Notes: generated from the letters alone by a model not told the origin. Shown: positions 9,458 through 38,821, counted from the first letter of the stretch. The stretch: DNA of 64,000 bases from Candidatus Hermodarchaeota archaeon (GCA_048885525.1 JBHLLP010000012.1:1-64000), one strand, 5' to 3'. Translations and numbers: made by a program.

Positions 9458-10378
9458 TCACATTATTTCTTTGCTAAAAACAGTAATCGGATCTTCAATA
9501 ACAGGACTTTCTATGATTATAACCATTTTATTTACTCCTAAATTTTCAAATTCCTGTATTTTTTCTTGAATATCTTTAATAGTACCCATGAAATGGTATT
9601 TTATATTGGATTTAAAGATTCCCTTCTCTTTTCTTATTCTTTCAAGCGTTTTTTGGTTGTCTACAATTGTAATATTAGTATAAATAGAGGTCTCAAACTC
9701 CATTGGATCTCGACCGTATTCCTTTAATTTTTCATTAATCGTAGAAATACTCTCTCTGAATTTTTTTTGATCTCGAGGAATTTGATATGCTAGATTTACT
9801 CCATCTGCTTCTCTACACGCAAGATCGATCATTCTCTTCCCATTGTTAGTTCCAACAACAATCTGCGGGTAAGGTTTCTGAATAGACTTTGGAAAATTTA
9901 TATGGGTTTCTAGTTTCCAAAATTTTCCATCAAATGTAGTTTCATCTTCTGTAAATATCTTCTTGTAAATAATAAGGGATTCTTCTAACTCATCAACTCT
10001 CCTTTTTGGGGAATAAAATGGATAACCATAGGCCTCAAATTCATCTTTAAGCCACCCTGCTCCTACCCACAGTAAAATACGGCCATTAGAAATATGATCC
10101 AATGTCAATATTACTTTAGCTAAATAAGCTGGATTGCGAAATGAATTACACATAACGATATGGCCTAATTTTATCCTATTTGTTTCCGTTGCTAAAGCAG
10201 CCAATATTGTATTAGATTCTAAAAATGGTATTTTTTTCTTTTGTACATCTCCTAAACTAAAGAAATGATCTGTAACGTGAACAGATTCAAATCCTAATCT
10301 TTCAGCTTTTACTGTTAAGTCTCTAATTTCAGAATATTTTTGATTTGAAGGATCTCTCACAACATACCCAAATCTCAT
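9458..10378 (-). CDS. LLM-class flavin/F420-dependent oxidoreductase
   Basis: MRFG start (ATG at 10378 preferred), AERLGFESV.VTDHF, RNPAYLAK..TLDHISNGR, GAGW..EF.AYG. Confidence 0.9.
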   Translation of the reverse strand: MRFGYVVRDPSNQKYSEIRDLTVKAERLGFESVHVTDHFFSLGDVQKKKIPFLESNTILAALATETNRIKLGHIVMCNSFRNPAYLAKVILTLDHISNGRILLWVGAGWLKDEFEAYGYPFYSPKRRVDELEESLIIYKKIFTEDETTFDGKFWKLETHINFPKSIQKPYPQIVVGTNNGKRMIDLACREADGVNLAYQIPRDQKKFRESISTINEKLKEYGRDPMEFETSIYTNITIVDNQKTLERIRKEKGIFKSNIKYHFMGTIKDIQEKIQEFENLGVNKMVIIIESPVIEDPITVFSKEIM

Positions 10379-10450
10379 AGGATTAAAAAAAAACATGAAC
10401 TAAATTAAGTTTTATCGTTTTTACCGAAAAATGTACATATACGTTATTTT

Positions 10451-18803: not shown

Positions 18804-19397
18804 ATGATTATAGATCACTGTGATAAAACACTCAGCATAAAAATAGTGTATTTTGGACCCGCATATTCGGGTAAGACTACTTCCATTAAATCATTATTCT
18901 CCCATTTTGGAAAGGGTGATGCGCTGCAAAGCATCGAAAGTACAGTTAAAAGAACCTTATTTTTTGATTATGGTACAATTACTTTCCAAAATGAAGAATG
19001 GAGGTTGAAGCTTCACATTTATACTACAACTGGTCAGGATTTCTATTTAATAACCAGACCAATTACTTTACGAGCAGTTGATGGCATTATACTTGTGCTG
19101 GACTCTCAAGAGGATGTATATGAACGTAACCTTACATCATGGAATGAACTTCTATCATATTTTAGAGATTGTATCGAAGATATTCCTATAATAATTGCAT
19201 TTAACAAACAGGATTTACCAGATAAATTTAATCCAAGAAATTTCTTAACAGAGATTGATTTTGATAAATATAAGAATATGGATTCACGATATACTATTGC
19301 AGTTAGTGGAGAGGGAATACTTGATTGTTTTGAGGATATATTAAGATTGGTATTAAGGAAGTTTTGCAAACATCGATTAATTTCAACTATAAACTGA
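18804..19397 (+). CDS. MglA-like small GTPase
   Basis: KIVYFGPAYSGKTT, RTLFFDY, YTTTGQ, NKQDL. Confidence 0.85.
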   Translation: MIIDHCDKTLSIKIVYFGPAYSGKTTSIKSLFSHFGKGDALQSIESTVKRTLFFDYGTITFQNEEWRLKLHIYTTTGQDFYLITRPITLRAVDGIILVLDSQEDVYERNLTSWNELLSYFRDCIEDIPIIIAFNKQDLPDKFNPRNFLTEIDFDKYKNMDSRYTIAVSGEGILDCFEDILRLVLRKFCKHRLISTIN

Positions 19398-20517: not shown

Positions 20518-21693
20518 GTGAAGTTTATTGAAGAAACTTGCGAACAATGTGGAAATTGTCTTTTTGAGTGTCCATTTTTAAAATTATCACGAGAGAGTGC
20601 TAAGGAAGCGATAATCCATATGATTGATAAAAGAATGAAGAATGAATCACTAAAGAACTGTATAGGATGTGGATATTGCGATAATGTCTGCCCTACAAAT
20701 TCAAACCCTAGTGAACTTATAAAAGAAATAAATGTAAAAGAGATTAGTAATCGAGGCTTACCACGTTTCTATTTTATTTCTGAAGAAATTCCTTTTAATT
20801 CAGCTACAATTGCTATGCAAATCGAAACTAAAACAAAAGAAAAAAAACTTAGAGAATACCTAAATCCACCCAAAAGTGAAGAAATGTTTTATCTCGGATG
20901 TAGTCTTTCTTATATCCAAACAGATTTACTAAACACCAGATTATTAGAAGGATTACCAAAAATAGGGGGAGCAAAATATTGTTGTGGGGGCATTGTAACT
21001 TATTTTGGTGATGAAGAAGTTAAAATAAAAGGTAAAGCATTATTAGAGGAATTCACTCGACTTGGCGTTAAAAAATTAATAATGTTCTGTCCTGGATGTT
21101 TAGGAATGATGAAAGGAGTTTATTCAAATCTTTTACCGGAGTTTAGGAATAGTATCGAATTTCAGACGTTTAGTCAATATCTTATAGAGAAGTATCATAA
21201 GGATGAAATTCGATTTACCACTAAAATTAATGAAAGGATAACATTTCATGATCCTTGTGCTTGGGTTGGTTTAGATGAAGAGGTCTTTAACGCTCCACGT
21301 GAATTACTGGAAATACTAGGTTATGAGGTAGTAGAAATGAAACATAATAGAAAAATGACTTTATGTTGCGCAGCTTCAGTTTCAGATTCAAATAAAGAGC
21401 TATATAACGAAATTTCAGGAATGAGAATTGCAGAAGCTGAAGAGATTGATGCTAAAAGGATGGTTGTTAGTTGTACTGGATGCTTATCCTTAGCAAAACC
21501 GGCACGAGAAAGGAATATAGAAACATATCATATGTTAGAATTAGCTCAAATGGCAATCGGTGAAAAACCAGCTCATAGAACGATTGAATTAAGGGAAAAC
21601 TATAAAAAACTTCTTACAAAAACAATAAAGGAAAACCCAAATCTACTTAAAGATAAAGTAATAATCAAGAATGGAAAAATCCAACACTTATAG
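20518..21693 (+). CDS. Fe-S oxidoreductase, GlpC/HdrD-like (two ferredoxin motifs plus CCG domains)
   Basis: CxxCxxCxxxCP twice, LGC, CCG, CPGC, HDPC, CC, SCTGC. Confidence 0.85.
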   Translation: MKFIEETCEQCGNCLFECPFLKLSRESAKEAIIHMIDKRMKNESLKNCIGCGYCDNVCPTNSNPSELIKEINVKEISNRGLPRFYFISEEIPFNSATIAMQIETKTKEKKLREYLNPPKSEEMFYLGCSLSYIQTDLLNTRLLEGLPKIGGAKYCCGGIVTYFGDEEVKIKGKALLEEFTRLGVKKLIMFCPGCLGMMKGVYSNLLPEFRNSIEFQTFSQYLIEKYHKDEIRFTTKINERITFHDPCAWVGLDEEVFNAPRELLEILGYEVVEMKHNRKMTLCCAASVSDSNKELYNEISGMRIAEAEEIDAKRMVVSCTGCLSLAKPARERNIETYHMLELAQMAIGEKPAHRTIELRENYKKLLTKTIKENPNLLKDKVIIKNGKIQHL

Positions 21694-23777: not shown

Positions 23778-24242
23778 TTATATTATTCGACCTTCAGATT
23801 GTGACACTTTGATAGGACGAAGAACTACACATACCCGTTCAACACTTTTCACATCAGCACGGGCACGAAATGATTCTATTAATGCATCTAGTTCAACAAT
23901 TTCAGGTACATTCACTTTCACTAAAACCCCACATTCCCCCGCAAGAAAATAGACTTCTTCACATTGAGGAAGAATCTGTGCTTCTCTCAATAACTCTTTA
24001 GTCTCGGCTTGAGTTTTTGGAATAAGTGTAAGGAATGCAATAATACATCTTTCATCTTCACGGCAGATCTTTATTGTAAATTTTTCAATTACACCTTCCT
24101 CTTGAAGCTTAATAACCCTTTTTCTCACGGTTGATTCAGATAATTGAACATTTGGATCTGCTGCGATTTCGTGGTATGGTCTCCTAGAATCCTCAAGGAG
24201 CATTTCAAGTATTCTTTTATCTTTATCATCAAGATTTTTCAT
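23778..24242 (-). CDS. Lrp/AsnC transcriptional regulator
   Basis: LDDKDKRIL..L..DSR.PY..SESTVRKRV.KL.EEGVI. Confidence 0.9.
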   Translation of the reverse strand: MKNLDDKDKRILEMLLEDSRRPYHEIAADPNVQLSESTVRKRVIKLQEEGVIEKFTIKICREDERCIIAFLTLIPKTQAETKELLREAQILPQCEEVYFLAGECGVLVKVNVPEIVELDALIESFRARADVKSVERVCVVLRPIKVSQSEGRII

Positions 24243-24316
24243 AATTCTTCCTCATGCTTATTATTTAAAATTAAAAAAATATAAAATTTGATAAAAAAAT
24301 TTTTATTATCTGTTAC

Positions 24317-25270
24317 TTATTTTACATATTCTGGATAATCTCCCAGAAGGGGTGCGAAAAGTCTTTCGTATTCTACTGCCATACAATGAATACCCGCAGC
24401 TTTAGTAGTTTTTTTGATTTCATCTATAAATGGTTTGAAATATTCGATATTAATTTTATCGATAGCCGCATATTTAGCCGGTTTGTTTCCTTTGTTATCT
24501 TTCTCTGCTTTCTTAAGGGATTTAAGAAGTTCCTTTGGTACCGAGACTCCTGGAATAAAATTATCGAAATACCATGCAATCCCATGCGATTTTAAGGGAA
24601 AGACGCCCAACAAAACAGGAACATTAAATTGCTCAAGTTCTTTGAGAAATTCTTTTGCTTGGTCTATATCAAATGCAGTCTGTGTTTGGATGAAATCAAC
24701 ACCTTTTTCTACTTTACGGCCTACTTTGAGGATCTCGGGTTCGCGTGGGTTACTATTAGGGTTTGCGACACATCCAAAATTCATCTCTATTTTACCACCT
24801 TCAAGTTCATTACCTTCATAATCAGTACCTTCATCAATCATTATAGAGAGCATTTCAGCAAACTGAGTACTATCGATATCATATACTGGACGGCCTTTTT
24901 TATGATCTCCAAGTGCTGTATGGTCTCCTGTAAGTGTAAGAATATTTTTTAATCCAAGAACGGCTCCCGCGATGACATCACCAAAGAGAGCAACGCGGTT
25001 TCTGTCTCTTACGGTTACTTGCCACACAGCTTCAATGTTTGCTTTTTCTTGAACAAGATAACTTGGTACCATTGAAGACATATAGGCATCACCTTGGGGA
25101 CCATCTGTTACGTTGGCAGCTACTATCCTACCTGTTTTTTTCATCTCTTTAGCAGAATGAATAATTTCATCAAGGCTTAAGATTTTTTTAGGCTCAAGTT
25201 CTCCAGTAAACACAAAATGGCCGGCCTCAATTGCTTTACATAAATTGCTATATGCTGTTCTTTTTGCCAT
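24317..25270 (-). CDS. metF: Methylenetetrahydrofolate reductase
   Basis: TGELEP, NVTD, TVRDRNR, LTLTGD, DFIQTQ, GIH. Confidence 0.9.
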   Translation of the reverse strand: MAKRTAYSNLCKAIEAGHFVFTGELEPKKILSLDEIIHSAKEMKKTGRIVAANVTDGPQGDAYMSSMVPSYLVQEKANIEAVWQVTVRDRNRVALFGDVIAGAVLGLKNILTLTGDHTALGDHKKGRPVYDIDSTQFAEMLSIMIDEGTDYEGNELEGGKIEMNFGCVANPNSNPREPEILKVGRKVEKGVDFIQTQTAFDIDQAKEFLKELEQFNVPVLLGVFPLKSHGIAWYFDNFIPGVSVPKELLKSLKKAEKDNKGNKPAKYAAIDKINIEYFKPFIDEIKKTTKAAGIHCMAVEYERLFAPLLGDYPEYVK

Positions 25271-25966
25271 TTATTTGCTCTCCTCCTTTTTTTCTTCAAT
25301 ATTAGTATAATCTTTGTAAATATTGTTATATCCTGGGCTTGTTGAGGTTCTAAAATCTCTTGGACCTCTATATTTTTTGAAAAGATCGATTCTACCAAAT
25401 TCTTTTAACCGTTGCCAAATACTTACCCATGCACAAGGAATTGTATATCCACCAACTTCACACATTCCTTCAACCATTCCTCCACAAGGACCGTTACTCA
25501 AATGTTTAGCACATCCTGCTCGAGGACATATCCCACCAGTCTCACCAATTATACAATCTCCACAAGATTCACAGAATTCGATATAATTATTTTGACTGTT
25601 GTCTTGAGCTCCACCGAACATACTGTTTTGAGCAGGGTATGTTAAAATCTTCGGAAGAACTCTGTTCATCATAACAACACCAAGACCGCACGCTAGAGTA
25701 ACTATAGCATCAAAATCCTCTTCATAAGGACGACATGTCGTGGCAGCAATCCTATCATCGCATTGTCGTAGAACTGTTATTGCTTTCCATTTTAATTCTT
25801 TACCTTCAGTTCTAGCTTTTAATTCTAAAAGTTGTCCTAGCACCTTTGCTTCATTAAGCGATCGAGGAGGTTGGCAACAACCGTCGCAACCAGTAATTAA
25901 AATCTTATTGTATGGCTTTATTAGCTCATATATTTCGCTTATATCTTTTTGTTGCGTAATTATCAT
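25271..25966 (-). CDS. metV: MTHFR partner subunit (Zn/Fe-S, MTHFR_C)
   Basis: GCDGC, RQC, LACG.G, CESCGDC..GGICP..CAK..NGPCGG..G.CEV..CAW. Confidence 0.9.
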   Translation of the reverse strand: MIITQQKDISEIYELIKPYNKILITGCDGCCQPPRSLNEAKVLGQLLELKARTEGKELKWKAITVLRQCDDRIAATTCRPYEEDFDAIVTLACGLGVVMMNRVLPKILTYPAQNSMFGGAQDNSQNNYIEFCESCGDCIIGETGGICPRAGCAKHLSNGPCGGMVEGMCEVGGYTIPCAWVSIWQRLKEFGRIDLFKKYRGPRDFRTSTSPGYNNIYKDYTNIEEKKEESK

Positions 25967-26061
25967 ATTACTAAACTCCTTTTTTTACATTTTTGTATTA
26001 ATTTTTACTTTTAAATTTAATTTATTAATAGCTTTATTAGTGTTTAAAAAATTCACACATC

Positions 26062-26943
26062 TTAGGTTGTTAATTTCTGAATTAACTTATTCGGTTTAAC
26101 ACTTCTGTTCTTCAAACTGAGATCTTGAAGATCAACTCCTAAAGCGACCGCAATAATTTCGGGTAAATATAGGATAGGAATATCAAGTTCCTTTCCCGTC
26201 TTTCGAGAAATTAATTTTTCCTTCCTATCATATTGAGTCACACAAGCGGGGCATACCGCAATTAGGGCATCAACATCTTGCTCAAGTTCACATAATTCCG
26301 TCATCTTATCCTCAACAAGTTTTTCGCCTATTTCTTCTTGTAATCGGGCGCAAAAACCGCAGCATTCTAATTTATTTGCAAACTCAATCGTTTTAGCACC
26401 AAGTGCTTGAAGAATATTATCGATTTTTTCAGGTTTCTCGGGATGATCAAACTGCATAATTTTACTTGGTCTAACAAGATGGCAGCCATAATGCACAGCG
26501 AGAGTTAAGTCGTCAAGGGGTTTAACTGTTAAATCTTTAAGTTTTTCTATCCATTCTGGCTGACTAAACAGTTCTACAAAATGATACACTTTAGTTTTTC
26601 CAGTATAGTGATAGTTAATCTTCTTTAATATCCTATCTATTTTTTCCAAATATTCTTCATCTTCTTCTAATAACACACTTACCGTTTTTAATGTTTCATA
26701 GCAACCTGAACAGATGGTAAGGATATCCAAACCCATTTTTTCAGCAATGGCTAGATTTCGTGCTCCTAAAGTGACCCATGTATCAATATTTAATGATTGA
26801 AGAGATACAGGTTCAGGGCAACAACTTACTCCTTCCATTTCTTTCAATTTCATATCTAAAATGCTTGCGACATCTCGAAATGCTTTCTCTAAATGAGGCA
26901 TCTTTAAAGGTATTGTACATCCTAAATATAATGCAAGTTCCAT
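26062..26943 (-). CDS. hdrB: Heterodisulfide reductase-like subunit B
   Basis: YLGC, SCCP, CSGC, HYGCH, CCG, CPAC. Confidence 0.9.
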   Translation of the reverse strand: MELALYLGCTIPLKMPHLEKAFRDVASILDMKLKEMEGVSCCPEPVSLQSLNIDTWVTLGARNLAIAEKMGLDILTICSGCYETLKTVSVLLEEDEEYLEKIDRILKKINYHYTGKTKVYHFVELFSQPEWIEKLKDLTVKPLDDLTLAVHYGCHLVRPSKIMQFDHPEKPEKIDNILQALGAKTIEFANKLECCGFCARLQEEIGEKLVEDKMTELCELEQDVDALIAVCPACVTQYDRKEKLISRKTGKELDIPILYLPEIIAVALGVDLQDLSLKNRSVKPNKLIQKLTT

Positions 26944-26945
26944 TT

Positions 26946-27476
26946 TTAATCATCCTCCTTTTTTTTTGCGAGATCTCCTAATCCCGTTTCTTCTATTATA
27001 TATCTAATTTCATCTAGATTAGGGGGTATAAGTTGGGGTAACCCCATCCTACTTCTTCTTCTATCAATATTATCTTTTAAGCCACCAGTATAAGGTACTA
27101 CATATCCATTATCATAGATTGTAACAACAGTTCCTGAATATTCTTTGGGAATTTTTCCCAATTTAACTGCCATGTTACGAAGAAGAGCAAGAATAAAAGA
27201 GTAATCTACATTCTTTGGACATCTTTCAGTGCATCTATGGCATAAAGAACACGTCCAAATTGCTTGACTTGAAAGAACTTCATCTTTTAAACCTAAAAGA
27301 CAGGATGCAACAACTCTATGTGGTTGCATATCAACATATTCCGTTACAGTACAGCCTGAGCTACATACACCACATTGGATACAGTTTAGAAGTGATTTTG
27401 CACCAACTTTTTGACTAATTTCATAACGAAAATTATGATCTAAATTTTTAGCATCTTTTTTCATCATTTCTGACAT
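26946..27476 (-). CDS. hdrC: Heterodisulfide reductase-like subunit C
   Basis: CIQCGVCSSGC and WTCSLCHRCTERCP. Confidence 0.9.
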   Translation of the reverse strand: MSEMMKKDAKNLDHNFRYEISQKVGAKSLLNCIQCGVCSSGCTVTEYVDMQPHRVVASCLLGLKDEVLSSQAIWTCSLCHRCTERCPKNVDYSFILALLRNMAVKLGKIPKEYSGTVVTIYDNGYVVPYTGGLKDNIDRRRSRMGLPQLIPPNLDEIRYIIEETGLGDLAKKKEDD

Positions 27477-27478
27477 TT

Positions 27479-30400
27479 TTAAGCAGCCTCCTTAGCTTTT
27501 TGTTTTTTTTCAATTTTATCACCTGTTTTAGGAAGTGGTCCTAATTCTTTAATTTGATTAACAAACTCAGTGATAACTTGAGAAAATCGTTTTCCTTCTG
27601 AAGCGCTTATCCATTCAAGATGATATCTATCGGAATTGATGCCAACACTTTCAAGTATATCTTTAAGCTCATTGTAACGTTGTAACATGTCATAATTTCC
27701 TTCTAAATAGTGACAGTCACCGATATGACATCCTCCAACAAACACACCGTCAGCACCTTCCAAAAATGCTTGTAAAATAAAGCTTTTGGGTATTCTGCCA
27801 GTACACATCACTCGTATTGGTCGAATATTAGTTGGATATTGAAAGCGGCTTACACCACATGTGTCAGCACCAGCATAACTACACCAATTACATAAGAAAG
27901 TTACGATTCTAGGCCTTTCATCTAAATATTCACCCTTGACAGCTTCACGGATCATAGGATAAATTTGATTATCTGCGAAATGACTCATTGTTATCGCTCC
28001 TGCGGGACATGCAGCCGAACAATCGCCACAACCTTTACATAAAAGAGGATTAGTTTCTGAAACTAAAACATTTTTATCAAAGTTAACTCCTATAGCTCCA
28101 AAGTTGCAAACTTCTTCACATTTTTGACATGCAATACATAGTGCTGGATCAACAAGCGATACGAGCGGTTCATTTTCCACTTCTCCTGAGATTAATGGAA
28201 TTAAAGCATGAGCTGCCGCACCTCTACCTTGTGAGATTGAATCTGCAATTCCTTTGGGACCATGGCAAGTTCCTGCTAGGTATATACCATCAGTTGCAAA
28301 ATCTACTGGTCTTAATTTAATATGAGCTTCTAAGAAAAAACCATTTTGATCTCGAGCACATTTTATCATCTCACCTAATTTTTGAGTATCATGAGGTATT
28401 AAGGGTGTAGATAAAACTACTTTGTCAGTCTCAATAGTAAGGTTAGTTTGAGTTAGAATATCTTTAACCATTACATTCAATTTACCATTTTTAACATCAA
28501 CAGTAGGATATTCGTTAAAACGTATATAGTTTACATTCTCACGTGCTTCCCAGTAAAAAGGTTCTTCATTGGTCCCTACTCGGATATCTCTATATAAAAC
28601 ATAAATAGTTGAGTGTGGATATGTTTCTCTTACGTATAAAGCATGTCTGATTGACTCTGAACAACAAATTAATGAACAATATGTGACCCCATTTCCACCT
28701 TCTGGTTGTCTAGAACCCACACAATGGATAAAAACAAGAGTTTCTCCATCTTTTAGTTCATTATTCCTAAGTTTTTCAGATAATTCAAGTTGTGTCATAA
28801 CATTATTATTTTCACCATAATGAAACCATCCAATGGGTTTATACTCATAAGCACCAGTAGCAGCTATAATTGTACCAATATTCAAACTAATATCTTTCCC
28901 TTCAAAATTGTTTGTAACTCTGACTTTAAAATCTCCAATAGATCCTTTCACATCAGTAACTTCAGAATTTAAATAAATAGTAACATTCTTATGTTCATTG
29001 AATTCTTTTAACTCTGCTTCTATAAACTCCTTTGAGTCAATTCTATCGAAATTGATTTTATAGATTGAGTTTAATTGCCCTCCTAGTTTATCATCTTTTT
29101 CTATTAAATGCACTTTAAAGCCCTTATTGGCGATTTCCAGAGCTGCACTCATTCCAGCTATCCCTCCACCTATTACCATTGCTTCGGGAATAACATTACC
29201 TTTAATTTTTAACTCTGCTTTTTGTGCTGCTACACGAGCAACACCCATTCTGATAAGGTCCTTTGCTTTATCGGTTGCTTTAGGGTTATCATTCATATGT
29301 ACCCATGAATCTAACTCTCTAATACTTACGAAATTAAACAAATATTCATTTAAACCTGCTTCCCTAATGGTCTTTTGGAATAATGGTTCGTGAGTTCTTG
29401 GTGTACATGCTGCAACTACAACCCTATTTAAGTTTAATTCTTCTATCTTTTCTTTTATAATGTCTTGGGTTAATTGTGAGCAGCTATACTTATTTTCCAT
29501 TGAATAAACTACATTTGGAAGTGTTTTTGTATAATCAACTAATTTAGGAACATCCATATATCCTGCAATATTAACACCACAGCGACATATGAATACACCA
29601 ATTCGAGGTTGATCCTTTGGATTTATGGGTTTAAGAGGAGGAAGATCTACTTTCGTTTCTTCGGCACTTAATGGAACAGCATGAGTTGCTGCTAAAGCTG
29701 CTGCTCCACCCGCCTTTGCCACCGAATTTGCAATATCATCAGGAGATTGGCATGAACCAGTCACATATATTCCTTCTCTTGTAGAACATAGATCTTCTAT
29801 AGAATCTTTGGTTTTGAAAAACCCGAAATCATTTTGTTCAATTCCTAGTATCTTCGCTAATTGTTCAGTGTCTTTTCGGGGAGTAACAGCATTTGCAAGG
29901 ACAACTAGGTCAAATTCACTAACTTCAACCTCACCGGTATCAAGGTTTGCATGCTTAACATATAGATTATGATTTTCTGGATTTTCACGGATATCTCCAG
30001 GAATTCCTCTATAATACAATATATTATACTCCTCTTTAGCTCTTTCAATAAACTCCTCTTGATTTTTTCCTATAACTCTAGTATCGTTGAAGAAGATCGT
30101 TACATTTGTATCGGGAGCATGCTCTCTCGTAACTACTCCTTCTTTAGTTTGATACATACAACAAAATTTAGAGCAATAAGGACATAAATCTATGTTTCTC
30201 GAACCTACACAACTAATAAAACCTATATTATACGCATGCTCCTTATCTGAGGGTCTTAATATTTCACCTTCAGTAGGACCAGATGCACTTAGTAATCGTT
30301 CATACTGCATCGCAGTAATAACATTTGGATATTCCCCATAATGATAACGATCAAGAACACTAGGGTCTAGTTGATCATATCCAGTAGCACAAATGATAGA

Positions 30401-30961
30401 TGCTACGTTATACTCAACAATTTCATCTTTCATATCCCAATTAATAGCTCCTGCCTCACATTCTTTTTCACAGAGTTTGCAAGCGTTTTTCGTAAAAAAT
30501 AAGCATCTTTCTGCATCAATGACTGCTTTTCTTGGTACTGCTTGCGGAAATGGAATATAAATAGCTGTACGATAACCCATACCTTCTTCAAATTCTGAAG
30601 GTATTTTTTTCATAGGACATTTCTCCATACATTGTCCACAACCAGTGCACACATCCCAATCAACATATCTAGACTTTTTAAGTACTTTTATGTTAAAATT
30701 TCCAGCTTCACCTGAAATTTCCTGTATTTCTGAATATGCTATGAGTTCTACATTAGGATGCCTAGACACTTCTACCATTTTAGGAGCCAGAATACATATA
30801 CTGCAGTCTAATGTTGGAAAGGTTTTATCGAGTTGTGCCATTCGGCCTCCAACAGAAGGAGTTTTTTCAACAAGAATTACTTTATATCCTTGTTCAGCTA
30901 AAGTTAATGCTGCTTCGATTCCACTAATACCTGCACCGATAATTAATATTTTACTATTCAT
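27479..30961 (-). CDS. hdrA: HdrA (two FAD modules) fused to C-terminal MvhD
   Basis: IIGAGISG..LDKTFPTLDC, ferredoxin insert, CVGSR..CS..CC, internal RIGVFICRCG.NI, second VIGGGIAG module, ferredoxin, then MvhD motifs FLCNWCSYAGAD, RVMCTGR, GGCH.GDCHY, WISASEG. Confidence 0.92.
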   Translation of the reverse strand: MNSKILIIGAGISGIEAALTLAEQGYKVILVEKTPSVGGRMAQLDKTFPTLDCSICILAPKMVEVSRHPNVELIAYSEIQEISGEAGNFNIKVLKKSRYVDWDVCTGCGQCMEKCPMKKIPSEFEEGMGYRTAIYIPFPQAVPRKAVIDAERCLFFTKNACKLCEKECEAGAINWDMKDEIVEYNVASIICATGYDQLDPSVLDRYHYGEYPNVITAMQYERLLSASGPTEGEILRPSDKEHAYNIGFISCVGSRNIDLCPYCSKFCCMYQTKEGVVTREHAPDTNVTIFFNDTRVIGKNQEEFIERAKEEYNILYYRGIPGDIRENPENHNLYVKHANLDTGEVEVSEFDLVVLANAVTPRKDTEQLAKILGIEQNDFGFFKTKDSIEDLCSTREGIYVTGSCQSPDDIANSVAKAGGAAALAATHAVPLSAEETKVDLPPLKPINPKDQPRIGVFICRCGVNIAGYMDVPKLVDYTKTLPNVVYSMENKYSCSQLTQDIIKEKIEELNLNRVVVAACTPRTHEPLFQKTIREAGLNEYLFNFVSIRELDSWVHMNDNPKATDKAKDLIRMGVARVAAQKAELKIKGNVIPEAMVIGGGIAGMSAALEIANKGFKVHLIEKDDKLGGQLNSIYKINFDRIDSKEFIEAELKEFNEHKNVTIYLNSEVTDVKGSIGDFKVRVTNNFEGKDISLNIGTIIAATGAYEYKPIGWFHYGENNNVMTQLELSEKLRNNELKDGETLVFIHCVGSRQPEGGNGVTYCSLICCSESIRHALYVRETYPHSTIYVLYRDIRVGTNEEPFYWEARENVNYIRFNEYPTVDVKNGKLNVMVKDILTQTNLTIETDKVVLSTPLIPHDTQKLGEMIKCARDQNGFFLEAHIKLRPVDFATDGIYLAGTCHGPKGIADSISQGRGAAAHALIPLISGEVENEPLVSLVDPALCIACQKCEEVCNFGAIGVNFDKNVLVSETNPLLCKGCGDCSAACPAGAITMSHFADNQIYPMIREAVKGEYLDERPRIVTFLCNWCSYAGADTCGVSRFQYPTNIRPIRVMCTGRIPKSFILQAFLEGADGVFVGGCHIGDCHYLEGNYDMLQRYNELKDILESVGINSDRYHLEWISASEGKRFSQVITEFVNQIKELGPLPKTGDKIEKKQKAKEAA

Positions 30962-31530
30962 AATTATTCTATTTCAATTTTTCTTTAGATTTTATTGTAA
31001 TTTATTAATTTGTTAGAAATATTCAATCAAATTTGAAAATTGTTTTTAATTTTGATAAGACATTTATATATTTTTTAATGACTATCTACGACAAAAATAT
31101 TAATAAGGCTTTCTATTTATAACTAATTTCAAAAATTCAAGGTTTATACTTTTTAGAAAAAGTTACTCATAGATCAAGCTTTCTAAAAAAGTTATCGAAT
31201 ATAGGAACCTTTTGTATAAAACTTGAAAGTTAAATAAATGACAATTTTCGTAAATAAGAATACTTTTTTGTGATAATTTTTTTTTTTTTGAAAAATTAGC
31301 AATATACGTTAAGCATCAGAAGAATAACGTAAAAATCTGTTAATCTAATTGTTCATTAATTTCCTTATTTATATACGAAAACTTGAAAAAATACTTAAGA
31401 TTTTAATATTTAAAGCATAAAATAACTTATTAATAAAAAATTAATTAATATCTTGGTAATATTCTACTATATAAATATTTAAAGTAAAATCTAAATGTTC
31501 ATTGCATTATTAAAATTTTGGTGAAAAAGT

Positions 31531-32211
31531 ATTAAAATTCTTGTTTCTGGGCCACTTCAATCAGGAAAGTCAAGTTATATTAAAGCTTTAGACGATAATG
31601 CATTGAATGTTGAAGCACAAGGTAAAGACCAGAAGTTTTATACAGTTGCGATGGATTTAGGATGCGTTAAATTAAATGGATTTGAATGTTACTTATTTGG
31701 TACACCGGGTCTTTTGCGGTTTTCTGTAATGAGAAATATCGTTACTAATGGTAGTGATGGATTAGTTTTTATATTCGATGCTGCTGCTCCTGAAAAAGAT
31801 GATAGTGCAATTATGATATTAAATTCTATTAGAAAAATATTACCGACCAATATCCCAACTGTTTTTTTGGCAAACAAACAAGATGTTGAAGGTGCTCGAA
31901 CCCCAGAAGTTATCCGATCACAGAATTATTTACCCGAAGATAGTAGAATCTTTCCAACAAGTTCAAAAACAGGATTAAACATAAGAGAATCTATTACACA
32001 CTTAGTTAATCATATATATGAAAAATATTCATCATTACTACAAACTCTTCGTGTGTATGAGAATGATATTGAAGGTTTAGCTGAAGAATTAAAAAAAGAT
32101 ACAATTCAAATGCGAGATTTCTTAAATAATTTAGAAATTAAACGATTTATTGAAATAGATAGGATTTCTAAAACATATAAGGTACGACAAGGATTAAAAT
32201 ATTTAGTATAA
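31531..32211 (+). CDS. Small GTPase (MglA/conservon-like) with C-terminal winged helix; start probably ATT at 31531, not TTG at 31603
   Basis: The in-frame upstream extension reads IKILVSGPLQSGKSS (Walker A), followed by TVAMDLG, LFGTPGL, ANKQD. GGTGA lies at 31520-31524. Confidence 0.75.
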   Translation: MKILVSGPLQSGKSSYIKALDDNALNVEAQGKDQKFYTVAMDLGCVKLNGFECYLFGTPGLLRFSVMRNIVTNGSDGLVFIFDAAAPEKDDSAIMILNSIRKILPTNIPTVFLANKQDVEGARTPEVIRSQNYLPEDSRIFPTSSKTGLNIRESITHLVNHIYEKYSSLLQTLRVYENDIEGLAEELKKDTIQMRDFLNNLEIKRFIEIDRISKTYKVRQGLKYLV

Positions 32212-37897: not shown

Positions 37898-38821
37898 TTA
37901 TATTAATTGTTCTAAAATCTTAACCAAACTATCAAGAAAAACTGGGAACTTTTCAAAGAATTTTTCTTTATATTGGTCTTTAAGTACTGCTGAAATGAAA
38001 AACGTGTCATTTTTAATTTTCTTTTTTAGTAGATATGAAAAGAGCTTACCTTCAGTTGAGGTAAAATCAAAATTTCCTTCATATTTTTCCTCTTCCATCC
38101 GTTTAAGTAAAAAGAGATGCTCTTTAATGGATTCTAACAACTCAACATATACTTCGGCTTCTATATCGCTGTAATATTCAGAAACAATAATTCCATTCCG
38201 ATCGAATAAAATAAGAGCTTGACTTTGAAATATTTCTAAATAATATTCTAATAATTCTGAAAGCTCAAAGAATTTTTTATCAAAAACAGATAAGCCATAT
38301 GAGACTAACTGAACGATCGAAATGATATCATAAATTGATGATTGTTGAAATAAAATATTGAAATTCGGATAATCATTCAAAATTTTTTTTCTTAATTTTT
38401 CAATATTAGCTAAAATTTTAACATCAGCTTTTAAATCTGGATCATATTTATGAAAAGTGATAATAATGGGGACATTCATTTCGCTTTTTTCAAAAAAACT
38501 TAGAATTGCATTTAAATATTCAAGTGAGTCATCAAATCGATCTGGATCTTGAATATCGATAACATAGATAAGTAAATCAGTAGCATCAAAATACACATCT
38601 TGATAATTGACGTAAATCTCTCTATAAGTTTCTTGTCCTCCCATATCCCAGAATACAGTATTACTTTTTAAAAAATTCATCTTATGGTATTCTACTCTAA
38701 TAGTAGGTTTAAGTTGGACAATATCCTTTTCAAAATCATATTTTTTATCTAAGGCTGTTAAGATTGAAGTCTTTCCGGCGTTATCAAGTCCTGAAATTAT
38801 ACACTTTAATAGACCTTCCAA
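37898..38821 (-). CDS. Rag/Arf-like small GTPase with C-terminal roadblock/longin-like domain
   Basis: GLDNAGKTS, PT, WDMGGQ, FHKYD, SIYD; C-terminal ALILFDRNGIIVSE. Confidence 0.85.
   Translation of the reverse strand: MEGLLKCIISGLDNAGKTSILTALDKKYDFEKDIVQLKPTIRVEYHKMNFLKSNTVFWDMGGQETYREIYVNYQDVYFDATDLLIYVIDIQDPDRFDDSLEYLNAILSFFEKSEMNVPIIITFHKYDPDLKADVKILANIEKLRKKILNDYPNFNILFQQSSIYDIISIVQLVSYGLSVFDKKFFELSELLEYYLEIFQSQALILFDRNGIIVSEYYSDIEAEVYVELLESIKEHLFLLKRMEEEKYEGNFDFTSTEGKLFSYLLKKKIKNDTFFISAVLKDQYKEKFFEKFPVFLDSLVKILEQLI

What the first reader, a model, noticed from the sequence alone, without database searches (positions are those of the whole stretch)
23778..30961. hdrA::mvhD-hdrC-hdrB-metV-metF-lrp operon: acetogen-type Hdr-coupled methylene-THF reductase in an Asgard archaeon
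Seen: six co-oriented genes, with 2-bp gaps between hdrA, hdrC and hdrB and abutting metV and metF. Established: HdrCBA-MvhD-MetV-MetF is the hexaheteromeric methylene-THF reductase of Moorella thermoacetica, proposed to bifurcate electrons. Inference: this Hdr set serves folate-type C1/Wood-Ljungdahl chemistry rather than CoM-S-S-CoB reduction. No hydrogenase (mvhAG) is adjacent, so the electron donor or acceptor is open. glyA and a homocysteine methyltransferase are also in the window.
Basis: partly seen in the sequence, partly recalled or inferred. Interest (0 to 1): 0.7.

Follow-up and report, generated by a model that had tools for sequence, protein, structure and literature searches.

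The report
Asgard Hdr-coupled MetVF methylene-pterin reductase operon
A Loki-type Asgard archaeon keeps the genes for a two-subunit methylene-pterin reductase (MetV/MetF) directly behind an electron-splitting heterodisulfide-reductase module; this conserved archaeal variant of a bacterial enzyme probably supplies the step left open by the missing Mer enzyme in its carbon-fixation pathway.

Summary
Six co-oriented minus-strand genes lie at the stated coordinates: hdrA(tandem)::mvhD, hdrC, hdrB, metV, metF, lrp. The same order recurs in about 55 of 66 Lokiarchaeia species loci.

HdrA is a fused pseudo-dimer. Copy 1 keeps the bifurcation signature (E221/K273), the Cys197 equivalent and the inserted ferredoxin domain. 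[quoted passage not shown]

A complex model docks MetV on the C-terminal ferredoxin/MvhD end of HdrA (score 0.70, best control 0.03).

The "folate-type" reading is only partly supported:
- The genome has the H4MPT branch (Ftr, Mch, Mtd, RFAP synthase) and CODH/ACS.
- No Fhs was found in any of 61 family genomes, and no FolC in this genome.
- No bona fide Mer was found in any of 41 family genomes sampled.

The most likely substrate is therefore methylene-/methyl-H4MPT, coupled to ferredoxin and an unknown disulfide.

One caveat: in other Asgard families MetVF sits beside Mer, and once Hdr-MetVF and Mer share a cluster. "Replacement" is therefore too simple.

This is a new variant of the known Hdr-type (type IV) MTHFR. 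The scan has already reported it in at least 41 other genomes.

The parts
30962..31602 (.). 640-nt AT-rich intergenic region between hdrA and a divergent Ras-like GTPase gene; presumed promoter region of the operon
   Evidence: Sequence read; ORF map; Ras family hit for 31603-32211. No promoter was mapped.
27479..30961 (-). hdrA(tandem)::mvhD, 1160 aa: two HdrA copies and MvhD fused in one chain
   Evidence: It is collinear with the solved HdrA 5ODC_A in three pieces and with MvhD 5ODC_D.
29627..30961 (-). HdrA copy 1 (residues 1-445): FAD/thioredoxin-reductase domain with the inserted 2x[4Fe-4S] ferredoxin domain. It has Cys53/Cys56 (= Cys194/197 of 5ODC) and the E221/K273 bifurcation signature. 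It lacks the N-terminal and C-terminal domains.
   Evidence: The alignment to 5ODC_A pairs residues 144-518 with query 3-382. Cys map. These residues are invariant in 24 orthologues.
27926..29626 (-). HdrA copy 2 (residues 446-1012). It has the N-terminal cluster domain (C459, C461, C494, C519) and a degenerate FAD domain, followed by the C-terminal 2x[4Fe-4S] ferredoxin domain. The FAD domain lacks Cys197 and the inserted ferredoxin domain, and has S728/R772 in place of E/K.
   Evidence: copy 1 against copy 2: 30% identity, with the insert missing.
27521..27916 (-). MvhD domain (residues 1016-1147), [2Fe-2S] adaptor, fused to HdrA
   Evidence: PF02662 matches residues 1019-1141. PDB MvhD chains match at E 1e-46 to 1e-51. 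Its Cys residues are invariant. It forms part of the modelled MetV interface.
26946..27476 (-). hdrC, 176 aa, two [4Fe-4S] motifs; 2-nt gap to hdrA
26062..26943 (-). hdrB, 293 aa, both CCG motifs intact; collinear over residues 1-291 with solved methanogen HdrB
25967..26061 (-). 95-nt AT-rich hdrB-metV spacer. A T6 run begins 14 nt after the hdrB stop, and AGGAG lies 8 nt before the metV start. Partial termination or an internal promoter is possible.
   Evidence: Sequence. A spacer of similar length is kept in relatives (coordinates).
25271..25966 (-). metV, 231 aa, Fe-S subunit with 12 invariant Cys; its N-terminal part is modelled against the HdrA C-terminal ferredoxin/MvhD end
   Evidence: No PDB relative by sequence.
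24317..25270 (-). metF, 317 aa, flavin (beta-alpha)8 methylene-tetrahydropterin reductase; abuts metV
23778..24242 (-). Lrp/AsnC-family regulator. It is always downstream in relatives but stands behind a 74-nt T-rich spacer, so it probably has its own transcript.

Best explanation
The five genes hdrA(tandem)::mvhD-hdrC-hdrB-metV-metF encode one enzyme complex: an archaeal Hdr-type methylene-tetrahydropterin reductase.

Proposed mechanism:
- MetF (flavin) interconverts the methylene and methyl forms of the C1 carrier.
- MetV (Fe-S) wires MetF to the C-terminal ferredoxin/MvhD end of HdrA.
- The fused HdrA is a built-in heterodimer with a single complete wire set, centred on the copy-1 FAD that keeps the bifurcation signature.
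[quoted passage not shown] The other runs through HdrC to the intact disulfide site of HdrB.

In this organism the carrier is most likely H4MPT. [quoted passage not shown] The step would be tied to the ferredoxin pool and an unknown thiol/disulfide pool rather than to F420. Lrp is probably its regulator.

Shown: the genes, domains, cofactor motifs, conservation and pathway context. Modelled: the MetV-HdrA contact. Inferred: complex formation, the carrier, the redox partners and the direction.
For: (1) Gene identities and tight spacing.

(2) The order hdrA-hdrC-hdrB-metV-metF-lrp is kept in about 55 of 66 species-level Promethearchaeota loci, at 62-95% protein identity. A second order, metV-metF-hdrA(tandem)::mvhD-hdrC-hdrB, occurs in other Asgard lineages (L084; L091 = G025). 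A bacterial Wood-Ljungdahl cluster has a collinear tandem HdrA (41% identity over 1004 residues) upstream of metV-metF.

(3) The two HdrA copies are complementary, and every cofactor residue is invariant in 24 orthologues, including two at 48% identity. This is the pattern Chadwick et al. describe for the Moorella HdrA (PMC9012536). The E/K signature is as described in PMC9430772.

(4) HdrB is collinear with solved methanogen HdrB, with both CCG motifs.

(5) The model supports binding of MetV to HdrA 446-1160. The score is 0.70 and the best of 3 controls is 0.03. That mark was reached by 58 of 80 solved complexes and 2 of 110 mismatched pairs; these counts hold only roughly because my own alignments were used. 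The runs agree in at least 97% of contacts, and the partner's pLDDT is at least 85. The interface is HdrA 941-947 and 985-988 (C-terminal ferredoxin Cys motifs) plus 1058-1067, 1102-1108 and 1145-1147 (MvhD), against MetV 8-64, which lies around Cys27/Cys30. MetV has no PDB relative by sequence, so the pass is not a recalled complex.

(6) Pull-downs in Sporomusa ovata show that MetV and MetF contact HdrA, HdrB and MvhD (PMC9430772).

(7) H4MPT context:
- Ftr, Mtd and Mch, RFAP synthase and CdhC are present.
- Mch is found in 59 of 61 family genomes and CdhC in 52 of 61.
- Mer passes its cut-off in 53 of 201 Asgard genomes but in none of the 41 in this family.
- The Hdr-type MetF (at least 65% identity) is found in about 35 of the 41 family genomes and in only one genome outside the family.
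- No Fhs in 61 family genomes and no FolC in this genome.
- Loki-3 MAGs were already reported to lack a typical mer (PMC8027215).
- Related archaeal MetVF genes lie beside mer or beside cdhC.
Against:
- The hdrB-metV spacer carries a T6 run, so metVF may be partly or wholly a separate transcript.
- In Asgard families that have Mer, MetVF sits next to mer. In G025 the whole metVF-hdr unit is followed by two mer genes. MetVF therefore does not simply replace Mer and may act on another carrier or use another redox partner.
- Genus g2 of this family has Mch and CdhC but only the Hdr-free MetVF. The Hdr-linked copy is therefore not indispensable for the pathway.
- FolD, SHMT and a homocysteine S-methyltransferase exist, which would suit a small folate pool.
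- The FolC control did not ring in Methanosarcina acetivorans. Chadwick et al. infer H4F use for biosynthesis in the Methanosarcinaceae (PMC9012536), so the missing FolC is weak evidence.
- No disulfide substrate is known in this organism.
Confidence: 0.6

Rival explanations
1. One reading: the complex is a true methylene-tetrahydrofolate reductase. It would serve a folate pool fed from serine/glycine (SHMT, FolD), for example to make methyl groups for methionine or to move amino-acid-derived C1 units. The H4MPT gap would be filled by something else.
For: - MetF and MetV belong to families whose tested members use H4F.
- FolD, SHMT and a homocysteine S-methyltransferase are present. The best NCBIfam hit of MetF is the bifunctional homocysteine methyltransferase/MTHFR model.
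- The neighbouring regulator is of the amino-acid-sensing Lrp type.
- MetVF coexists with Mer in other Asgard families.
- Methanosarcinaceae use MetVF with H4F for anabolism (PMC9012536).
Against: - No Fhs in 61 family genomes and no FolC in this genome.
- FolD stands alone beside an actin gene, with no folate gene cluster.
- An anabolic trickle hardly needs a dedicated 1160-aa bifurcating module that is kept at 75-91% identity across the 21 family orthologues aligned.
- The MetF lies in the archaeal group that also includes MetVF copies beside mer and cdhC.
- Chadwick et al. argue for H4MPT use in the ANME-1-type MetF clade, which they report includes Asgard sequences.
Confidence: 0.25
2. These are two independent enzymes that are merely neighbours. 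One would be an HdrA2B2C2-like soluble disulfide/ferredoxin oxidoreductase with its own donor (for example F420H2). The other would be a stand-alone ferredoxin-dependent MetVF like that of Clostridium ljungdahlii.
For: - The HdrA passes the NCBIfam HdrA2 model (1179 bits against a cut-off of 1100), and like HdrA2 it has MvhD fused.
- A 95-nt spacer with a T-run separates hdrB from metV.
- MetVF works alone in some acetogens (PMC8760232 and PMC8515935, abstracts listed).
- A second MetVF pair in this genome has no Hdr neighbour.
- One relative (L026) lacks hdrCB between hdrA and metV.
Against: - The HdrA2 score is inflated by the tandem duplication: it sums three matched stretches.
- The linkage of a tandem HdrA with metVF recurs in two different gene orders in Asgard archaea, in a contig labelled Bathyarchaeota and in a bacterial Wood-Ljungdahl cluster.
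- The complex model supports a MetV-HdrA interface that places Fe-S motifs face to face.
- Pull-downs in S. ovata show the contact.
Confidence: 0.1

Closest known systems
Hdr-type (type IV) methylene-THF reductase MetFV-HdrCBA-MvhD of Moorella thermoacetica and Sporomusa ovata (Mock et al. 2014, as described in PMC9430772 and PMC9012536)
   Same: It has the same six protein modules in one cluster. Its HdrA also has two thioredoxin-reductase-type FAD domains, with the bifurcation signature in only one (as in S. ovata). HdrB and HdrC are intact, and no hydrogenase is attached.
   Different: - The Loki HdrA keeps the inserted ferredoxin domain, which both bacterial enzymes are reported to lack.
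- It has no GltD/NAD(P)H module (Moorella has one).
- MvhD is fused to HdrA rather than encoded separately.
- The gene order differs.
- MetF belongs to an archaeal group, about 35% identical to the bacterial rows sampled.
- The pathway context is H4MPT, not H4F.
- A collinear tandem HdrA with the inserted domain does exist in one bacterial metVF cluster (L086).
MvhADG-HdrABC of hydrogenotrophic methanogens (PDB 5ODC, 8RVU, 7BKB)
   Same: HdrA copy 1 aligns along its whole length to the solved HdrA FAD and inserted-ferredoxin domains (422 bits over 380 residues). HdrB is collinear. [quoted passage not shown] All cluster ligands are kept.
   Different: The homodimer is replaced by one fused chain with complementary losses. 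No MvhAG hydrogenase is attached; in the model MetV contacts the C-terminal ferredoxin/MvhD end. No Mcr was found in the genome, so CoM-S-S-CoB is unlikely to be the disulfide.
MetFV of ANME-1 and 'Ca. Syntrophoarchaeum', and the MetFV-HdrA-MvhD clusters of Syntrophoarchaeum (Chadwick et al. 2022, PMC9012536)
   Same: Archaeal MetF/MetV has been proposed to stand in for a missing Mer on H4MPT. That MetF clade is reported to include Asgard sequences, and clustering with HdrA and MvhD is reported.
   Different: Here the full hdrACB set is present, and the architecture, distribution and MetV docking were examined. In other Asgard lineages the Asgard MetVF coexists with Mer.
HdrA2B2C2 of Methanosarcina acetivorans (Yan, Wang and Ferry 2017; listed as reference 29 in PMC9430772)
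   Same: It is an HdrA with a fused MvhD domain that works without a hydrogenase, and the title of that paper describes it as an electron-bifurcating enzyme dependent on ferredoxin and F420H2.
   Different: HdrA2 is a single HdrA. The window's protein passes the HdrA2 model only because two copies add up. Here MetVF, not F420H2, is the candidate partner at the MvhD end.
Mer, F420-dependent methylene-H4MPT reductase
   Same: It catalyses the pathway step proposed here, and it shares the (beta-alpha)8 fold class with MetF (PMC11094777, abstract listed).
   Different: It is a different family and uses F420 directly with no energy coupling. It was not found above its cut-off in this family, but it lies next to MetVF in other Asgard families.

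Membership tests
Hdr-type (type IV) MTHFR, MetFV-HdrCBA-MvhD | MetF (PF02219) and MetV (PF12225) encoded side by side | tested here: met
   The genes abut.
Hdr-type (type IV) MTHFR, MetFV-HdrCBA-MvhD | hdrA, hdrB, hdrC and mvhD in the same co-oriented cluster as metVF, conserved across species | tested here: met
   Conserved in about 55 of 66 loci.
Hdr-type (type IV) MTHFR, MetFV-HdrCBA-MvhD | Enlarged HdrA with two FAD/thioredoxin-reductase domains | tested here: met
Hdr-type (type IV) MTHFR, MetFV-HdrCBA-MvhD | HdrA lacks the inserted ferredoxin domain, and in Moorella carries a GltD/NAD(P)H module (PMC9430772) | tested here: not met
   Copy 1 keeps the inserted domain, with 8 invariant Cys. 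The 1160 residues are fully accounted for by HdrA and MvhD segments, leaving no room for a GltD module.
Hdr-type (type IV) MTHFR, MetFV-HdrCBA-MvhD | Physical contact of MetVF with the Hdr/MvhD proteins | tested here: inconclusive
   The model supports binding: score 0.70, best of 3 controls 0.03. The mark was reached by 58 of 80 solved complexes and 2 of 110 mismatched pairs, roughly, because my own alignments were used. It is a model, not a measurement.
Hdr-type (type IV) MTHFR, MetFV-HdrCBA-MvhD | One transcript for hdrCBA-mvhD-metVF | not testable with these tools
The 95-nt spacer with a T6 run leaves the question open.
Hdr-type (type IV) MTHFR, MetFV-HdrCBA-MvhD | Substrate is methylene-tetrahydrofolate | not testable with these tools
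Methanogen-type HdrABC (CoB-CoM heterodisulfide reductase) | HdrB with two CCG motifs and HdrC with two [4Fe-4S] motifs | tested here: met
Methanogen-type HdrABC (CoB-CoM heterodisulfide reductase) | NCBIfam equivalog scores for HdrA, HdrB and HdrC | tested here: not met
   HdrB scores 265 against a cut-off of 345, HdrC 98 against 160, and HdrA (NF041778) 743 against 1400. Only the HdrA2 'exception' model passes, through summed duplicate stretches.
Methanogen-type HdrABC (CoB-CoM heterodisulfide reductase) | Organism makes CoM-S-S-CoB (has Mcr) | tested here: not met
   No McrA (PF02249) was found in a genome that is 99.3% complete.
Archaeal MetF group (the group holding the rows from Asgard and Bathyarchaeota-labelled contigs in the trees built here) | MetF branches with archaeal MetF sequences, apart from the bacterial rows | tested here: met
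   The group of 34 rows has support 96/98; in the FastTree of 144 rows its support is 95-97. Named members are from Lokiarchaeota and Bathyarchaeota. ANME-1 sequences themselves were not included.

The most novel reading that the evidence does not exclude
The complex is a flavin-based electron-bifurcating methyl-H4MPT:ferredoxin/disulfide oxidoreductase.

The methylene/methyl-H4MPT couple (about -320 mV) lies midway between ferredoxin (about -500 mV) and a heterodisulfide-type couple (about -140 mV). These are textbook values recalled from my own knowledge. On those figures, oxidation of methyl-H4MPT could be split reversibly between the two. That would make the 'Mer step' of the Lokiarchaeial Wood-Ljungdahl pathway an energy-coupling site that involves a still unknown thiol cofactor in a non-methanogen.
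Probability: 0.3. Interest if true: 0.75.

Novelty: new variant of a known kind. Interest (0 to 1): 0.52.

Why it matters
Lokiarchaeia are read as hydrogen-dependent or syntrophic acetogen-like organisms in models of eukaryote origins. Yet their archaeal Wood-Ljungdahl pathway has a repeatedly noted hole at the Mer step (PMC8027215).

A conserved, Hdr-wired MetVF is the best genomic candidate for that step. If it is the enzyme, the energetics of the pathway change: ferredoxin and a disulfide take the place of F420.

It also raises the question of which thiol/disulfide an Hdr serves in an organism without methanogenesis. Finally, it offers an archaeal version, with a ferredoxin-binding domain, of a bacterial enzyme whose mechanism is still unsolved.

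Tried and rejected
- **Complex job.** The first complex-prediction request did not complete. The same request was repeated and ran.
- **HdrA2 membership.** I rejected the NF040770 pass as evidence, because the score sums the duplicated copies.
- **MetF duplication.** The quick tree joined the Hdr-type family MetF with the clade holding the paralogs (96). The finished careful tree leaves that node unresolved (81/78). I therefore do not claim a within-family duplication or a single origin of the Hdr linkage.
- **FolC.** Its absence is weak evidence, because the control did not ring in Methanosarcina acetivorans either.
- **HdrD-like gene.** The gene at 20518-21693 was considered as a partner. 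It is on the other strand and is conserved in only one of the fetched loci, so I rejected it.
- **Promoter/terminator scan.** The bacterial sigma-70 scan was not used, because it does not apply to archaea.
- **Moorella and Sporomusa sequences.** They could not be fetched by name, so the comparison with them rests on PMC9430772 and PMC9012536.
- **Residue-level carrier specificity.** I did not attempt to infer H4F versus H4MPT specificity from residues.

Full report
**1. What is there**

The minus strand of 23778-30961 carries six ORFs exactly as described. Pfam and NCBIfam identify them as follows:
- a 1160-aa HdrA-type flavo-iron-sulfur protein ending in an MvhD/FlpD domain
- HdrC
- HdrB, with two CCG domains
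- MetV (PF12225)
- MetF (PF02219)
- an Lrp/AsnC regulator

The gaps are 2 nt (hdrA-hdrC), 2 nt (hdrC-hdrB), 95 nt (hdrB-metV), 0 nt (metV-metF) and 74 nt (metF-lrp).

Both longer spacers are AT-rich with T-runs. A T6 run starts 14 nt after the hdrB stop, AGGAG precedes metV, and T7 runs precede lrp. Lrp is therefore probably a separate transcript, and co-transcription of metVF with hdrACB is likely but not shown. Upstream of hdrA lies a 640-nt AT-rich region shared with a divergent Ras-like GTPase gene.

The window is contig C12 of a 3.58-Mb genome that is 99.3% complete. It belongs to a Lokiarchaeia/Promethearchaeota archaeon, as the source names and the many small GTPases show.

**2. It is not an assembly accident**

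The MetF query found 66 species-level loci. Wherever the contig reaches far enough, the order hdrA-hdrC-hdrB-metV-metF-lrp is kept. This holds for about 55 loci, with proteins 62-95% identical, and usually with PEPCK and the Ras-like gene upstream.

There are two exceptions. L026 lacks hdrCB between hdrA and metV. L078, a short contig labelled Bathyarchaeota, has metF followed by hdrA.

The genome holds seven other HdrA paralogs and other HdrB/HdrC sets. Its only NiFe hydrogenase lies on C64 beside two of those paralogs. The Hdr set in the window is therefore a dedicated one.

**3. Anatomy of HdrA**

Against the solved HdrA of Methanothermococcus thermolithotrophicus (5ODC_A), the protein matches in three pieces:
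- residues 3-382 match 144-518 (FAD domain plus inserted ferredoxin domain)
- residues 450-616 match 2-168 (N-terminal cluster domain and the start of a second FAD domain)
- residues 870-1005 match 512-647 (C-terminal ferredoxin domain)

Residues 1016-1147 are MvhD.

Copy 1 (residues 1-445) has:
- the DCSIC motif, Cys53/Cys56, equivalent to Cys194/Cys197
- eight Cys of the inserted ferredoxin domain
- the residues equivalent to E356 and K409, here E221 and K273, which mark bifurcating HdrA flavins (PMC9430772)

Copy 2 (residues 446-1012) has:
- the N-terminal domain Cys (459, 461, 494, 519)
- no Cys197 equivalent and no inserted domain
- S728/R772 in place of E/K
- the C-terminal ferredoxin domain

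All of these residues are invariant in 24 orthologues, including two at only 48% identity.

This is the "complementary Cys197/N-terminal domain" pseudo-dimer that Chadwick et al. describe for fused HdrA and for the Moorella enzyme. It gives one complete wire set per chain.

HdrB is collinear with solved HdrB and keeps both CCG motifs. The pass of the NCBIfam HdrA2 model is an effect of the duplication.

**4. Does MetVF bind the Hdr module?**

A complex model of HdrA 446-1160 with MetV supports binding:
- The score is 0.70, and the best of 3 controls is 0.03.
- That mark was reached by 58 of 80 solved complexes and 2 of 110 mismatched pairs. The counts hold only roughly, because my own alignments were used.
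- The runs agree in at least 97% of contacts, and the partner's pLDDT is at least 85.

The interface joins two surfaces. One is formed by the Cys motifs of the C-terminal ferredoxin domain (941-947, 985-988) and the MvhD domain (1058-1067, 1102-1108, 1145-1147). The other is MetV residues 8-64, around Cys27/Cys30.

MetV has no relative in the PDB by sequence, so this is not a remembered complex. It is a model, not a measurement. It agrees with the pull-downs in Sporomusa ovata.

**5. Which C1 carrier?**

Present in the genome:
- Ftr, Mtd and Mch
- beta-RFAP synthase, the committed step of methanopterin synthesis
- CdhC

Not found:
- Fhs
- FolC
- McrA
- Mer above its cut-off; the best hit scores 163 bits against 348.7

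Also present are FolD, standing alone beside an actin gene, SHMT and a homocysteine S-methyltransferase.

Across the family, Mch is found in 59 of 61 genomes, CdhC in 52 of 61 and Fhs in none of 61.

Across 201 Asgard genomes, Mer passes its cut-off in 53, but in none of the 41 of this family. The Hdr-type MetF (at least 65% identity) is found in about 35 of those 41 and in only one genome outside the family.

Yin et al. had already noted that Loki-3 MAGs lack a typical mer. The papers I could search do not mention the hdr-metVF operon of Lokiarchaeia. H4MPT is therefore the more likely carrier, but this remains an inference.

**6. Complications**

- The genome has a second metV-metF pair on C60, with a MetF 45% identical and no Hdr neighbours. 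In many relatives this pair lies about 7 kb downstream of the first.
- Genus g2 of the family has Mch and CdhC but only this Hdr-free pair.
- In Asgard families that do have Mer, MetVF lies 0.3-4 kb from mer (G007, G012, G038 and others).
- In G025 the cluster reads metV-metF-hdrA(tandem)::mvhD-hdrC-hdrB-mer-mer.
- Another Asgard contig places metF-metV beside cdhC.

MetVF thus belongs with the H4MPT/CODH-ACS genes, but it is not a simple substitute for Mer. The two may be isoenzymes that use different redox partners.

**7. Phylogeny**

In a tree of 144 representatives and in a careful tree of 45 rows, the window's MetF lies in an archaeal group (support 96/98). The named members of that group are Lokiarchaeota and Bathyarchaeota. 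The family's Hdr-type forms a tight clade (100/98) on a long stem. Its relation to the Hdr-type of G025/L084 and to the paralogs is unresolved.

A bacterial-type Wood-Ljungdahl cluster (L086) has a tandem HdrA that is collinear with the window's (41% identity over 1004 residues) and includes the inserted ferredoxin domain. It has an in-frame TGA at the Cys197 position. The architecture is therefore not restricted to archaea.

**8. Verdict**

This is a real, conserved, archaeal variant of the Hdr-type (type IV) methylene-tetrahydropterin reductase. It differs from the two studied bacterial enzymes in four ways:
- it keeps the ferredoxin-binding insert
- it lacks an NAD(P)H module
- MvhD is fused to HdrA
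- it sits in an H4MPT context

The scan has reported the same cluster in at least 41 other genomes, with the same reading. New in this report are the residue-level HdrA anatomy, the Mer/MetF distribution across 201 genomes, the Mer-MetVF adjacency, and the MetV docking model.

Noticed in passing
L091 (G025:C12:47000-66000), L088 (G007:C1), L089 (G012:C1), L090 (G038:C1): In Asgard families that have a bona fide Mer, a metV-metF pair lies 0.3-4 kb from mer. In G025 the cluster reads metV-metF-hdrA(tandem)::mvhD-hdrC-hdrB-mer-mer. MetVF and Mer are thus co-located rather than mutually exclusive outside the window's family.
   Followed up: partly
G000:C60:11233-12814 (L014 9216-10821): A second metV-metF pair in the same genome (MetF 45% identical, MetV 41%) has no Hdr neighbours. 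In many relatives it lies about 7 kb downstream of the Hdr-linked pair. Genus g2 of the family has only this type.
   Followed up: partly
L086 2455-5523: A bacterial-type Wood-Ljungdahl cluster (acsB, cdhD-fused metF, acsE) carries a tandem HdrA collinear with the window's. It has one in-frame TGA exactly at the Cys197 position (DCSLU), which is a likely selenocysteine.
   Followed up: partly
L026 4841-9951: One Lokiarchaeial relative has hdrA followed directly by metV-metF, without hdrC and hdrB between them.
   Followed up: no
window 20518-21693 (+): An HdrD-like protein (two [4Fe-4S] motifs plus one CCG domain, 391 aa) lies 2 kb beyond lrp on the other strand. Among the fetched loci it is conserved only in L021.
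   Followed up: partly
window 9458-10396 (-) and G000:C55:16551-17384: These are luciferase-like (COG2141) paralogs that match the Mer model weakly (89 and 163 bits against a cut-off of 348.7). This is the kind of gene proposed elsewhere as a 'distant mer alternative' in Loki-3.
   Followed up: no
window 18804-19397, 31603-32211, 37898-38821; L101 3901-4872: There are several Ras/Arf/Roc and Gtr1/RagA-type small GTPases. One of them is always divergent from hdrA in relatives.
   Followed up: no
G136:C450 (L097): A genome of another Asgard family (f22) carries a 2.6-kb contig with lrp (94% identical) and the Hdr-type metF (74%). This is probably a binning stray or a recent transfer.
   Followed up: no
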